From positions 19,516 through 83,515 of IMG/VR virus record IMGVR_UViG_3300028139_000001: a stretch of 64,000 nucleotides of DNA. One strand, 5' to 3'. Positions 10,001 through 62,958 of the stretch are shown in pieces. The position numbers and the translations under genes are program-made. Positions within the stretch are counted from its first letter, which is position 1, and each line of letters begins with the position of its first letter. Below the pieces are notes generated by a model. That model saw only the letters and a program-made list of their open reading frames with translations, was not told where the DNA came from and searched no databases. This stretch comes from a virus. Lineage: Duplodnaviria > Caudoviricetes.

Positions 10001-13000
10001 AGTTACAAAATTAACGGATATCACAGATAAGATTGTTCCGTTATTTCAGAAAAACTCCATACAAGGGGTAAAATATTTAGATTTCTTAGCTTTTGTTTCA
10101 ATCGTAGAATTAATGAATAATAAAGTTCATTTAACAGAAAAAGGGGTAAATCAAATTAAAGAAATAAAAGCCGGAATGAATAAAGGAAGAGACAATTAAT
10201 TTGTCTTATTTATTTGCATGATAAATTTGGTGGTCGTGAAAAAATTAGAATGTAGATTAGAAATCTCTCAAAGACGAGAAGATCACAAAGGATATGATAA
10301 TTTCGATTTCTTAAGTAATATTGCTGAGTTTTTAGAAACAGAAGTAAAAAAAATAAGATCGGATAGACCGAAACCTGAGTATAGAGTTAGAACTACTAAT
10401 CTTAAAGGTAATATTAAAGCTAAAAATTATCTTTTACAATTTCCTCTATTTGGAACTAAACATTTAGATTCATTAGATTGAATGGAAGTAGTAGACATGT
10501 TTGATAAAAAGGAGCATAATACAGATGAAGGAAAGAAAAAAATAGTAAAGATCAAATCAGGTATGAACAATTTCAGAACAAATTTTACTTTTGATCATTT
10601 ACAAAACTTCTACAACTTAAAAAGGGGGAACCCTCTATTTTTAAGTGCTCACAGACACGATTCTACTGAAGGGTCAGTAGTTCCAGTCAAAATCTACTTA
10701 AATGCGGATCTAGATAAGCAAGCTATAATTACCGAAAATAGAGGTAAATCGGGTATTTATCTTTGGGTAAACTTAAAAAATAGTGAAGTATATATTGGTA
10801 GTAGTGTGAGCCTAGGGGTCAGACTTAGAAAATACTATAGCCATTATTATCTTACAAAAGGTAGTAAAGGTATGTACATTTCTAGAGCTCTATTAAAATA
10901 CGGGTACTCAGGGTTTAAACTAGAGATTTTAGAATACTGTGCTCCAGAAAAGTGCCTTGAAAGAGAACAATACTATATCGATAAATTAAACCCTAAATAT
11001 AATGTCCTACCTACAGCCGGTTCCCCTCGTGGTCGTAAACATACAGAGGAAGCCCGTAAATTAATGTCAGAGGCTAAAAAAGGTAACAGAAATGCCACTG
11101 GTCATATAGTTTCTGAAGAAGTCCGAGCCAAAATGTCGGAAGCTAAAAAAGGGTGGAAAAGGCCAGAAAGAGCTGGACGTCACCCCGTTCTGATAGAAGT
11201 AATAGATCTTGAGACAGGAATGACCCAACAATATCCCTCAATAAGGGATCTTTCTAGAGCCATAGGTGTACATGCAGGAAGCATTAGTAATTATTTATTA
11301 CCCCCTAGTGGAAAGTCTTCCTCAAGTAAAACTAAAAAGCCTTATAAAGGTAGGTATATATTTAAATATATATAAAAACATATACCTTCCCTATCCTTGC
11401 TTTCACCTCTGTGGAAAAAATTTATATTGTAGGGGGCTGCTAGGTAGCCTAAAAATAAAATATATTTTTTTTGCAAGGGTAAAACCAAAACCTGAAAATT
11501 TATATAAAAATATAAGATATAGTCCGATCAAGCACGAGAGTGTTTGCGTGCCTACACTAAGGTTTAATAACCTTTTTAAGCTTAAAGAACAACACTAAGC
11601 TATGTGATTTCATCAAGTAGGCCAACAATTTTAATGGGAATAACTATGGTTCTAACGGACCGTAACTTTAATACATCATTCTTTGAGGTAGCAGGGGGTG
11701 GGGATCCTATATTATATCAACATCTTTTCTTCTTCTTGGTTTTATTACCAAGTAAATTTAAAAATATATCATATCATGATTATATAAATTGAGAATATGA
11801 ATGCTGTCCTAAGCCCCACTCGTTTGCAAATGTTCCATTACATAGTGTACCGCCAAAATTCAGTGCTAGATGGCAGCCCTATAATCGTGATCAGCAAAGG
11901 GGAGTACAATTAACTAACCGTCGTTCTGAATCGCCAGATGGAATAATCGATCAACTAAGGGCAGCACCATTAACTACCCGTCGTTCTGCATCGCCAGATG
12001 GAATAATCAATCAGGAAAGGAGAGTACCATTAACTACCCGTCGTTCTCCATCGCCAGATGGAGTACTCGATCAGCAAAGGGGAGTACCCTTAAATAACCA
12101 TCGTTCTGAATCGACATATGGAATAATCGATCAACTAAGGGCAGCACCACTAACTACTCGTAATTCTGCATCGCCAGAATTAATACCCCGTCTTCCCTCT
12201 CCTCCTATAGCAGCATATCCAGGCTGGGATACACCTGTAGAGCGGAGTGGTAGATTTATTGAATGACGTAGGCAGAGAAGATTAATACCTACAAATGAAC
12301 AGCTAGTTCAATTAGAGGCTGATTTATGGTTTTACCAAGATAAACTAATTTCAAATCCTAATTGTACTGCTCAGCGAGATATTGATGCTATTCAAAGGGA
12401 AATTCTTTTAATAAGAGAACGGTTACGTACGGAAGAGATAACACAGCGACTAAGAGAGTCCCAAGCACAACCGGAAACACAGCCGGAAATACAGCCGGAA
12501 ACACAGACGCAAACACAGACGCAAACACAGCCGCAAATACAAGAGGAACCGCAACAACGTCATCCCTCAGGTTGGACACCTATTAATTGGAAACCTGGTG
12601 ACCCAACTACAAATGCTTGTATAACTCTTGTTAGTACAAGAGTGTCCCCATTAGTTGTAAGTATGATAAACCATTTAAGACCATTATTAAGTCTAATAAT
12701 ACCTTTAGTCTTATCTGCTTTAACTTTGATTAGTTTATCTTTCATTTCAGATATTCATATCTTGTTAACTAGTATGTTAGGTGAAATTTTTGGGTCAGTT
12801 CTTTGGGGTTTATGAATAGTTATAGTCTTTTTATTAAGGCTAGTACTTATGATTCGTAAAGCTAAAAAGTCTGTTGTTCTATATGAAAAATTCTTTAATT
12901 TTGCAGCTAATCATTATTCATCTTGAATACTATACTTTTTTATCTTTTTACTAAGTGTAGGATTAGTCTACTGTTGTGGTTGTAATTGTAATTGTGTTTG

Positions 13001-62958: not shown

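What the first reader, a model, noticed from the sequence alone, without database searches (positions are those of the whole stretch)
11731..62958. Hypothesis: a family of mobile, respiratory-gene-tagged cargo proteins rides on the cox/cob transcripts
Seen: five unrelated non-HEG coding blocks are each fused or coupled to a core gene: ORF709, the post-cox2 ORF, the cox2 exon-2 duplicate ORF (31362), the Cob extension (~62545-62958) and the cox1-386 extension. Two begin with the same Cox1-tail motif. All are stop-free over 120-450 codons in AT-rich DNA where neighbouring HEGs decay. Inference: gene termini and the cox1-cox2 linker act as docking and expression sites for selfish or adaptive membrane or helical proteins.
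Basis: inference. Interest (0 to 1): 0.78.

Follow-up and report, generated by a model that had tools for sequence, protein, structure and literature searches.

The report
Hitch-hiking genes on fungal mitochondrial genes
In this Pleosporales-type fungal mitochondrial genome, five unrelated genes of unknown function are attached to the ends or introns of cox1, cox2 and cob. All five recur in related fungi, some attached to other host genes, so they look like passenger genes that borrow their hosts' expression.

Summary
The window is a fungal (Pleosporales-like) mitogenome with a continuous cox1-cox2 frame. All five non-endonuclease blocks exist and are coding-like (GC3 far below GC1/GC2). All five recur elsewhere: post-cox2 ORF 48 homologues, ORF709 11, cox1-386 extension 24, Cob extension 1, cox2 exon-2 duplicate ORF 1. 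They are five unrelated families, not one. Only ORF709 and the post-cox2 ORF share the Cox1-tail motif, apparently captured separately.

The post-cox2 family is found behind cox2, before cob with a Cob head, with a Cox1 head, and fused to nad3. Every locus examined keeps a Cox2 C-terminal remnant. The cox1-386 cargo is absent from the same intron in two relatives.

Metatranscriptome contigs carry the post-cox2 ORF on spliced cox2 mRNA and the Cob extension on spliced cob mRNA.

Frames stay open beyond neutral expectation, but amino-acid constraint is clear only in the post-cox2 membrane domain. The Cob tail evolves faster than neutral.

Best reading: passenger ORFs that borrow host translation and spread by recombination with mobile introns. 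Their function and mobility mechanism are not shown.

Earlier notes of this scan report similar modules in other genomes. Published mitogenome papers list such ORFs only as hypothetical.

The parts
3804..4961 (+). B5: cargo appended in frame to the LAGLIDADG ORF of a cox1 intron (frame 2604-4961). It has 4-5 hydrophobic helices, an Asn-rich spacer, an acidic run and a small C-terminal domain.
   Evidence: Pfam matches only COX1 and LAGLIDADG upstream; 24 homologues; one fused to Cox1 N-terminal exons, one to VAR1/rps3, others free; the segment 3800-5197 is absent from the homologous intron in L006 and L016 and present in L015. P(open) 0.0008.
11730..13070 (+). B1 ('ORF709'): 446-codon ORF in frame with the upstream cox1 exon (ends ...YQHLF at 11729). 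It is a diverged copy of the cox1-cox2 junction with about 400 codons between the anchors.
   Evidence: 11 homologues. Most that reach the ends follow the same cox1 exon and keep the Cox1-tail and Cox2-head motifs; same cox1 intron in L006 and L016; helical hairpin plus 3-4 membrane helices. P(open) at most 0.0008.
11811..11846 (+). Cox1-tail motif copy in B1 ([12 protein letters not shown])
   Evidence: pairwise match to the resident tail.
11889..12178 (+). 60-nt tandem repeat, 4.8 copies (20-aa RRSxSPDG units). It is an expansion inside B1 that is absent from all 11 aligned homologues.
   Evidence: absent from homologues.
13035..13067 (+). Cox2-head motif copy closing B1 (CDTPRDWGLYF, then TAA where the resident gene has Gln). 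Cox2-like sequence decays on past the stop.
26731..27009 (+). Last cox1 exon, ending ...[13 protein letters not shown] with no stop codon.
   Evidence: 96% identical to Ascochyta lentis, omega 0.04.
27010..27162 (+). Resident 51-codon cox1-cox2 linker, by position a Cox2 leader (hydrophobic stretch, then ...VS|CDAP). It is variable among relatives.
   Evidence: the A. lentis linker has only 22 residues; a relative in the metatranscriptomes joins 27009 to 27163 with other or no letters between; weak profile match to the B2 N-terminal region.
27163..27489 (+). cox2 exon 1
   Evidence: COX2_TM; loose end at 27489 reads on into the exon 2 start.
31347..31820 (+). B3: a copy of the intron end plus the first 76 nt of cox2 exon 2 (31348-31437, 94% identical to 31833-31922), reading on into a 127-codon tail of unknown kind.
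   Evidence: relative L012 with 66% identity, there in one ORF with cox2 exon 1. RNA depth about intron level. P(open) 0.037.
31847..32032 (+). True cox2 exon 2 (distal copy)
   Evidence: exon-level depth; joint 32032>33858.
33858..33965 (+). cox2 exon 3
   Evidence: joints 32032>33858 and 33965>37149.
37149..37246 (+). cox2 last exon, stop TAA 37244-37246. Its last 77 nt are duplicated downstream of B2.
37247..38182 (+). B2: 311-codon post-cox2 ORF with TAATG stop/start overlap. Order: Cox1-tail motif (37325-37360), membrane helix, conserved amphipathic segment, Gly/Ser-rich disordered part, helical hairpin, basic C-terminus.
   Evidence: 48 homologues, including Ascochyta lentis, Exserohilum rostratum and Coniothyrium glycines orf284; domain omega values; structure model; on the same contig as the spliced cox2 exons, at several times intron depth.
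38246..38322 (+). Displaced second copy of the cox2 C-terminus (...[25 protein letters not shown])
   Evidence: the same remnant follows every B2 homologue examined, including the relocated ones.
38389..38550 (+). Conserved non-coding element after the cox2/B2 unit. It is 72% identical to 63024-63187, which follows the cob unit.
62225..62544 (+). Last cob exon up to the usual Cob end (...[10 protein letters not shown])
   Evidence: Cytochrom_B_C; exon junction 57355|62225 in spliced RNA contigs.
62545..62958 (+). B4: in-frame C-terminal extension of Cob, about 137 codons, with a Thr/Pro linker and then an Ala/Thr/Glu-rich sequence. No structure was predicted for it.
   Evidence: spliced cob mRNA contigs L009 and L010 run through it; relative L011 keeps it at 52% identity; it evolves faster than neutral. 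P(open) 0.023.
63024..63187 (+). Second copy of the conserved 3' flank element

Best explanation
The five blocks are real protein-coding passenger genes from five unrelated, fast-evolving families. As far as named records show, these families occur in Pleosporales-type mitochondrial genomes.

Proposed mechanism. None of the five encodes a recognisable nuclease. I propose that they persist because each is placed where the host's transcription and translation reach it without a 5' leader of its own. Four placements are seen:
(a) In frame behind an exon or behind an intron endonuclease ORF (B1, B5, B3).
(b) As a read-through extension of a host C-terminus (B4; nad3-B2 and rps3-B5 in relatives).
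(c) By stop/start overlap, TAATG (B2 here).
(d) Behind a copied 5' region and first codons of a host gene (Cob-head and Cox1-head B2 in relatives).

They change place by recombination and carry pieces of earlier hosts with them: the Cox1 tail, the Cox2 head, the Cox2 C-terminal remnant. They probably spread between lineages together with neighbouring mobile group I introns, through co-conversion of flanks.

Shown: recurrence, context changes, presence/absence of B5, open-frame retention, coding composition, and presence of B2 and B4 on mature mRNAs.

Inferred: dependence on host translation signals, spread by co-conversion, and a largely selfish or neutral role.

The conserved Cox1-tail motif next to a membrane helix in B2 may be a processing site, or a mimic of the regulatory Cox1 C-terminus. 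Neither was tested.
For: Recurrence.

Different hosts:
- B2 lies after cox1/2 in A. lentis, before cob with a Cob head, fused to nad3, and with a Cox1 5' region before nad2, with a second paralogue nearby.
- B2 head types are listed.
- B5 is fused to Cox1 exons or to VAR1/rps3, or stands free, and is absent from the same intron in L006 and L016.

Host souvenirs: a Cox2 C-terminal remnant follows every B2 locus examined. Cox1-tail and Cox2-head motifs are kept in most B1 homologues that reach the ends.

Open-frame retention: P from 0.0000 to 0.04 in nine of ten pairs.

Coding-like codon-position GC in all five.

B2 membrane domain omega 0.14-0.41.

Synonymous divergence of B1, B2 and B3 is 0.36-0.54 times that of core exons in the same genome pairs. 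Several intron endonuclease genes in those pairs are similarly low.

RNA: spliced cob mRNA runs through B4. B2 lies on the contig that carries the spliced cox2 exons, at about 5-10 times intron depth. Fourteen metatranscriptome runs hold B2.

The geometry of B2 equals that of published mORF gene hybrids (PMC3630166).
Against: - No protein evidence. RNA contigs cannot show translation, and mitochondrial genomes are transcribed almost everywhere.
- Omega is about 0.7-2 for B1, B3, B4, B5 and the B2 hairpin, so function at the amino-acid level is not demonstrated for most of the sequence.
- No mobility enzyme is present, and co-conversion is only inferred from position.
- The lower synonymous divergence could also reflect constraint rather than recent transfer. 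It rests on the simple Nei-Gojobori pairwise dN/dS method and on few sites.
- B3 and B4 each have only one homologue, from close relatives.
- B2 is so widespread, and so often behind cox2, that it may now be an ordinary vertically inherited gene.
- The rule that translation needs gene-specific 5' leaders is established in yeast, not in Pleosporales.
- Homologues come from ORF calls, so decayed copies are under-sampled.
Confidence: 0.55

Rival explanations
1. They are ordinary, vertically inherited, lineage-specific mitochondrial genes with a host function, for example accessory or assembly factors of complexes III and IV. The varied contexts merely reflect the frequent rearrangement of Pleosporales mitogenomes.
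For: B2 is found in at least three named genera of different families, usually right behind cox2. Its membrane domain is under purifying selection. It sits on mature cox2 mRNA at near-exon depth. Pleosporales gene order is known to be fluid (PMC5626475).
Against: B5 is absent from the same intron in two relatives. B2 has paralogues and at least five different heads. Cargo synonymous divergence is about half that of core exons of the same genome pairs. Omega is near or above 1 over most of the length. B4 diverges four times faster than the neutral yardstick.
Confidence: 0.25
2. They are by-products without function of their own: duplicated gene ends and linker expansions that happen to be open or are young. 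They are tolerated because a stop would gain nothing.
For: B3 and B4 are not longer than chance frames on the non-coding strand. B1 contains a young tandem-repeat expansion. Omega is about 1 for most segments. Antisense frames are also open across B1 and B4.
Against: Neutral simulations with the observed substitutions predict 2-9 stops per pair, and none is seen. All indels are in frame. GC3 is far below GC1 and GC2 in all five. There are conserved motifs and an omega of 0.14-0.41 in the B2 membrane domain. Dozens of homologues exist down to 31-45% identity.
Confidence: 0.12
3. The cargo proteins are unrecognised mobility proteins: new nuclease, recombinase or maturase folds that move their own DNA, as endonuclease mORFs do.
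For: B2 has exactly the mORF gene-hybrid anatomy: replacement C-terminus, ORF, displaced native C-terminus. B1 and B5 occupy the place of intron endonuclease genes.
Against: There is no Pfam match. The models show membrane helices, disordered low-complexity spacers and a helical hairpin, with only generic coiled-coil fold matches at E above 0.1. A membrane anchor is unexpected for a DNA enzyme.
Confidence: 0.05

Closest known systems
mORF gene hybrids of Allomyces macrogynus atp6 and Glomus atp6, atp9, cox2, nad3 (PMC3630166)
   Same: An ORF inserted in the 3' end of a respiratory gene brings an in-phase replacement C-terminus and pushes the native C-terminus downstream. The hybrid is present in mRNA. 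B2 matches this geometry.
   Different: The known elements encode LAGLIDADG or GIY-YIG endonucleases that explain their mobility. B2 encodes a membrane-anchored helical protein with no nuclease signature. It is old and widespread, and it also occurs at 5' ends with copied gene heads.
Continuous cox1/cox2 reading frame of Pleosporales, Acanthamoeba and Dictyostelium (PMC5626475, PMC6221350)
   Same: The window has the same stop-less cox1-cox2 junction. The B1 family is a copy of that junction, and the B2 N-terminus resembles the Cox1 tail plus the start of the linker.
   Different: The published fusion is a two-gene junction with a short linker. Here copies of the junction with about 300-400 extra codons sit in a cox1 intron and elsewhere.
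Chimeric ORFs of plant mitochondria associated with cytoplasmic male sterility (my own knowledge)
   Same: They are patchworks of pieces of core genes and sequence of unknown origin. They encode small membrane proteins, are co-transcribed with essential genes, evolve fast and are lineage-specific.
   Different: No phenotype, nuclear suppressor or reproductive conflict is known here. Several fungal modules are conserved across families of fungi, unlike most CMS ORFs.
Coniothyrium glycines orf284 and the 'non-conserved' or 'hypothetical' ORFs listed in Pleosporales mitogenome papers (PMC6221350, PMC8956966, PMC11167856)
   Same: orf284 is a member of the B2 family (P0034). The authors noted similarity to Bipolaris hypothetical proteins.
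   Different: The papers I read give no family description and no link to host-gene fragments. They treat such ORFs as of unknown function.

Membership tests
mORF gene hybrid (Allomyces/Glomus type) | ORF inserted in the 3' part of a host gene, with an in-phase replacement C-terminus upstream and the displaced native C-terminus downstream | tested here: met
   For B2: 37170-37246 against 38246-38322 is 86% identical over 77 nt. The same remnant is present in relatives.
mORF gene hybrid (Allomyces/Glomus type) | The inserted ORF encodes a LAGLIDADG or GIY-YIG homing endonuclease | tested here: not met
   No Pfam match for B2. The model is a membrane helix plus a helical hairpin. Only generic coiled-coil fold matches were found.
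mORF gene hybrid (Allomyces/Glomus type) | Hybrid gene and ORF present in mRNA | tested here: met
   One metatranscriptome contig carries the joint 33965>37149 and all of B2, at depth 1673 against about 260 in introns.
Intron-encoded ORF of a group I intron (endonuclease or maturase type) | ORF in frame with the upstream exon inside an intron of a core gene | tested here: met
   B1 follows the cox1 exon ...YQHLF without a stop and does so in homologues too. B5 lies in the frame cox1 exon + LAGLIDADG + B5.
Intron-encoded ORF of a group I intron (endonuclease or maturase type) | Nuclease or maturase motifs in the ORF | tested here: not met
   None in B1, or in B5 proper. The LAGLIDADG domains lie upstream of B5.
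Intron-encoded ORF of a group I intron (endonuclease or maturase type) | Recognisable group I ribozyme core around the ORF | tested here: inconclusive
   Rfam found no Intron_gpI match in 11500-14100 or 27400-31900 at E up to 1. The Rfam model found only one of the many introns in the window, so a miss means little.
Continuous cox1/cox2 ORF of Pleosporales | No stop codon between the Cox1 C-terminus and the Cox2 N-terminus, same frame | tested here: met
   Frame 26722-29643 reads ...PLQSS + 51 codons + [20 protein letters not shown]....
Continuous cox1/cox2 ORF of Pleosporales | Polyprotein is cleaved into Cox1 and Cox2 | not testable with these tools
   This needs protein data. The Asp after ...VSC fits the yeast Imp1 site only by analogy (my own knowledge).
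CMS-type chimeric mitochondrial ORF | Chimera of core-gene fragments and unknown sequence, co-transcribed with a core gene, encoding a membrane protein | tested here: met
   Heads and tails from Cob, Cox1, Nad3 and Cox2. RNA. Membrane helices in the models.
CMS-type chimeric mitochondrial ORF | Causes a heritable phenotype countered by nuclear genes | not testable with these tools
   No genetic data.

The most novel reading that the evidence does not exclude
These modules are fungal counterparts of plant CMS genes: mitochondrial conflict or regulatory elements. On this reading B2 and B1 display a copy of the regulatory Cox1 C-terminal tail beside a membrane helix, and B4 remodels the regulatory Cytb C-terminus. 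They would tamper with assembly-feedback control of Cox1 and Cytb synthesis (Mss51/Cox14/Coa3 and Cbp3/Cbp6 in yeast), or bias which mitochondrial genome wins after hyphal fusion. The faster-than-neutral change of B4 and of the B2 hairpin would then reflect an arms race.
Probability: 0.12. Interest if true: 0.9.

Novelty: new variant of a known kind. Interest (0 to 1): 0.62.

Why it matters
Fungal mitogenome papers list ORFs like these as 'hypothetical' or 'non-conserved' and move on.

Here at least three of them turn out to be recurrent families. They are kept open, are transcribed on host mRNAs, and carry fragments of the respiratory genes they have lived in.

That gives a concrete, testable picture of how a gene without its own expression signals can survive and move in a mitochondrial genome. 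It also points to the stop-less cox1-cox2 junction as a possible birthplace of new proteins.

It matters for annotation too: Cob, Cox1 and Cox2 products may be longer or chimeric. And it bears on any study of mitochondrial inheritance conflict in plant-associated Pleosporales.

Tried and rejected
- Whole genome of the window: not held.
- Pfam on all blocks and on homologues: only host-gene and LAGLIDADG domains.
- ESM Atlas for B2 and B5: no usable hit.
- Foldseek of the B2 model against the PDB: only generic helical hairpins at E above 0.1. The B1 model is of low confidence.
- Is the B2 body a diverged Cox2, in any frame? A profile search of the spliced cox1-tail/cox2 CDS in three frames found only the tail motif. 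Rejected.
- Is B4 really coded on the antisense strand? The antisense frame is open too, but shows no lower omega (1.25), and the sense strand is in spliced mRNA. Rejected.
- Is the 27009>27163 joint splicing of the linker? It travels with nearby variants from a more abundant relative, and its 'between' letters are unknown or different. I read it as another strain's linker, not as splicing.
- Raw RNA-seq runs X20 and X21 of the labelled species gave no usable reads on the stretch (none for X20, one partial read for X21), so they are no test.
- Rfam found no family for the conserved 3' flank element or the introns.
- Identifying short B2 heads through the PDB gave only a weak Cox3 hint for P0041 (E about 1) and nothing for P0033.
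Full report
**What the window is.** Under genetic code 4 the plus strand carries three genes:
- an intron-rich cox1 that runs without a stop into cox2 (frame 26722-29643);
- cob, from about 40227 to 62958;
- the start of nad4 at 63503.

GC content is 25-34%. Named relatives of its proteins are Ascochyta lentis, Exserohilum rostratum and Coniothyrium glycines. The continuous cox1/cox2 frame is a published hallmark of Pleosporales (PMC5626475, PMC6221350). Fourteen phyllosphere metatranscriptome runs hold the DNA nearly letter for letter.

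**The observation.** All five blocks exist; coordinates are in the parts list. 'ORF709' is the cox1 intron ORF at 11730-13067. The 'cox1-386 extension' is the last 385 codons of frame 2604-4958 and lies outside the stated range.

The Cox1-tail motif occurs exactly three times in six frames and the Cox2-head motif twice. Past the B1 stop the Cox2 match continues ([12 protein letters not shown] against [13 protein letters not shown]).

By length alone, B1 (446 codons), B2 (311) and B5 (385 within 785) are far beyond the null. The non-coding strand reaches at most 193 codons, and the 95th percentile of shuffles is 168. B3 and B4 are within the null.

All five show the codon-position GC pattern of real genes in this genome: GC3 0.15-0.22 against GC1 0.28-0.51. 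Profile comparisons show the families are unrelated apart from the tail motif. Pfam recognises nothing in the cargo parts.

**B2, the post-cox2 ORF.**
- *Anatomy.* cox2 ends ...LWLQEQ-TAA, and the ORF's ATG overlaps that stop (TAATG). A second, 86% identical copy of the last 77 nt of cox2 follows the ORF.
- *Homologues.* A database search found 48 homologues at 31-86% identity over most of the length. C. glycines orf284 is one of them. Its authors noted only a likeness to Bipolaris hypothetical proteins.
- *Conserved core.* The alignment shows (K)PHxFSSMPLQSGIFTINR, then a membrane helix, a second conserved hydrophobic segment, a Gly/Ser-rich stretch, a helical region and a basic C-terminus. 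AlphaFold gives a membrane helix (residues 42-71), a second helix, a disordered spacer and a confident helical hairpin (pLDDT 95-98). No specific fold match was found.
- *N-terminal heads differ.* Types seen are: one overlapping the cox2 tail, 60 residues of Cob, the Cox1 5' region with MWFERWFLSSNAK, the whole of Nad3, and a probable Cox3 fragment (weak). Six begin at MPLQS.
- *Contexts.* The ORF lies 18 nt after cox1/2 in A. lentis, 466 nt before the true cob start, behind nad2 as a nad3 fusion, and before nad2 with a second paralogue nearby.
- *Origin.* Every locus examined, relocated ones included, keeps a Cox2 C-terminal remnant right after the B2 stop. The unit therefore once lay in the cox2 3' end and has moved with that souvenir.

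**B1, ORF709.** There are eleven homologues at 31-54% identity. Seven begin with the same cox1 exon end ([28 protein letters not shown]). The shared layout is:
- a short spacer;
- [14 protein letters not shown];
- a helical segment;
- Gln/Pro/Thr-rich repeats;
- [11 protein letters not shown];
- three or four hydrophobic helices;
- CCVCDCNCVC;
- in six of them, (C)DAPRA([11 protein letters not shown]).

These features are shown. Loci L006 and L016 show it inside cox1 between the same exons.

In L007 the module instead follows a cox2 3' end and a spacer, carries 45 residues of Cox1 C-terminus, and precedes a cox2 copy. So a copy of the whole junction [Cox1 tail - X - Cox2 head] recurs, mostly in one intron.

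The 60-nt tandem repeat (4.8 copies) is absent from all aligned homologues. B2 carries SSM where Cox1 and most B1 copies have TSL, so the two families probably captured the tail separately.

**B5.** An exhaustive search found 24 homologues, seven below E 1e-30. The conserved core is four to five hydrophobic helices ending ...GYILKMN, an Asn-rich spacer, an acidic run and a small C-terminal domain.
- One homologue is fused to Cox1 N-terminal exons.
- One is fused to the ribosomal protein VAR1/rps3.
- Others are free-standing.

The homologous intron in L006 and L016 has the LAGLIDADG gene but lacks window 3800-5197. L015 has the cargo, separated from the LAGLIDADG by a stop. This is a clear presence/absence difference.

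**B4.** One homologue from a close relative (L011; flanks 88-91% identical) keeps the extension in frame at 52% identity. Two JGI contigs (L009, L010) are spliced cob mRNA, identical or nearly identical to the window's exons (100% except 99.8% on L009's last piece). They run through the extension into nad4. They also show that the distal copy of the duplicated cob exon is the one used.

**B3.** One relative (L012) shares 66% identity in the tail. There nad4, cox2 exon 1 and the first 76 nt of exon 2 (joined without an intron) and the B3 tail form one frame. A copy of the intron end plus true exon 2 follows. In the window's RNA, the B3 region is at about intron depth. The true exon 2 is at exon depth, so the distal acceptor is the main one.

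**RNA.** Depths in the two metatranscriptome contig sets (X10, X4):

| Region | Depth |
|---|---|
| Exons | 5,000-15,000 |
| Introns | 200-350 |
| B2 | 1,700-2,900 |

B2 lies on the same contig as the spliced cox2 joints 32032>33858 and 33965>37149. Contig depth is a crude measure, and RNA does not prove translation.

**Selection.** I used Nei-Gojobori (NG86) pairwise dN/dS estimates under code 4.
- *B2.* The tail-motif and membrane domain has omega 0.14-0.41. In nine of ten pairs the hairpin has omega 1.1-2.2 (0.32 against the closest relative, L014).
- *Others.* B1 0.65-1.8, B3 0.8, B5 0.7. The B4 extension is about 2, against 0.48 for the adjoining Cob core.
- *Core controls.* Core exons of the same genome pairs mostly give omega 0.03-0.22.
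- *Synonymous divergence.* For B1, B2 and B3 it is only 0.36-0.54 times that of core exons in the same pair (p 5e-3 to 6e-8). Several intron endonuclease genes in those pairs are similarly low. This means either more recent shared ancestry, as for mobile introns, or constraint on all sites.
- *B4 is the opposite.* Its non-synonymous divergence is 4.2 times the core synonymous rate (p 9e-7).
- *Open frames.* Simulating the observed number and spectrum of substitutions predicts 2-9 stops per pair, and none is seen. P(open) is at most 0.0008 for B1, 0.0008 for B5, 0.002-0.11 for B2, 0.037 for B3 and 0.023 for B4. All indels are in frame.

So truncation is selected against in all five, while most of the sequence is free, or driven, to change.

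**How it most likely works.** Each block sits where host expression reaches it without signals of its own:
- in frame behind an exon or an intron ORF;
- as a read-through tail;
- by stop/start overlap;
- in relatives, behind a copied host 5' region and start.

In yeast, mitochondrial translation depends on gene-specific activators that bind 5' leaders (my own knowledge). If that holds here, gene termini are the only places where a foreign ORF can be translated. That would explain the docking pattern.

All five also lie in, or within about 0.1-0.3 kb of, group I introns that carry endonuclease genes. Co-conversion during intron homing is therefore a plausible vehicle. This step is inferred.

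The B2 anatomy equals that of endonuclease-bearing mORF gene hybrids (PMC3630166), but without the endonuclease.

The Cox1 C-terminus and the Cytb C-terminus are regulatory in yeast (PMC2966052, cited in PMC4571327; PMC10132202). A conserved Cox1-tail copy in B2 and a long tail on Cob could therefore touch assembly feedback. That is speculation.

**Comparison and novelty.** The published papers I read list such ORFs as hypothetical or non-conserved. Earlier unchecked notes of this scan describe similar modules in other genomes. I used them as leads only.

I class this as a new variant of a known kind: mORF-like gene hybrids and CMS-like chimeric ORFs, here without a mobility enzyme and forming conserved families.

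Noticed in passing
window 38389-38550 and 63024-63187; also L007 140-330, L001 after 4976, L011 2262-2420, L017 after 4560: A conserved non-coding element of about 165 nt follows both the cox2/B2 unit and the cob unit (72% identical). It is conserved in relatives, with a closing helix and hairpins that keep pairing through a few compensatory changes. It may be an mRNA 3'-end or processing signal. It has no Rfam family.
   Followed up: partly
window 27009/27163: Metatranscriptome contigs at high depth join the Cox1 end directly, or through other letters, to the Cox2 start. They carry nearby variants (26800, 26802, 26820). A more abundant relative in the same leaves therefore has a different cox1-cox2 linker, so the linker is hypervariable.
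   Followed up: partly
L012 1-2645 and L007 2040-2300: In another lineage, cox2 follows nad4 in one open frame (...ILDGVHYSVSTLLYALDFSVISCDAGISWAPYFQ...) instead of following cox1. L007 keeps a nad4-tail remnant before cox2. The stop-less fusion partner of cox2 is thus not fixed.
   Followed up: no
window 50398-50470 and 51926-52001: A short cob exon is present twice. The spliced mRNA contigs L009 and L010 use the distal copy (51965-52018). The proximal copy continues into a LAGLIDADG ORF.
   Followed up: partly
window 40763-40847 / 53178-53260; 41318-41382 / 53644-53708 / 22526-22590 / 50257-50313; 28519-28731 / 30271-30487 / 58682-58886: Short repeated inserts sit in frame inside several LAGLIDADG genes. 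They add peptides such as ...[19 protein letters not shown]... and ...[17 protein letters not shown]... without breaking the frames. They look like miniature mobile hairpin elements.
   Followed up: no
window 11879-12913 (minus strand) and 62490-62954 (minus strand): The longest open frames on the otherwise non-coding strand (150, 193 and 154 codons) lie antisense to B1 and B4. In B4 the antisense frame is also open in the relative, but shows no sign of constraint.
   Followed up: partly
L017 1904-2686 and 3501-4517: One relative carries two diverged paralogues of the B2 family about 0.8 kb apart. One lacks the Cox1-tail motif and the other has a copied cox1 5' region.
   Followed up: no
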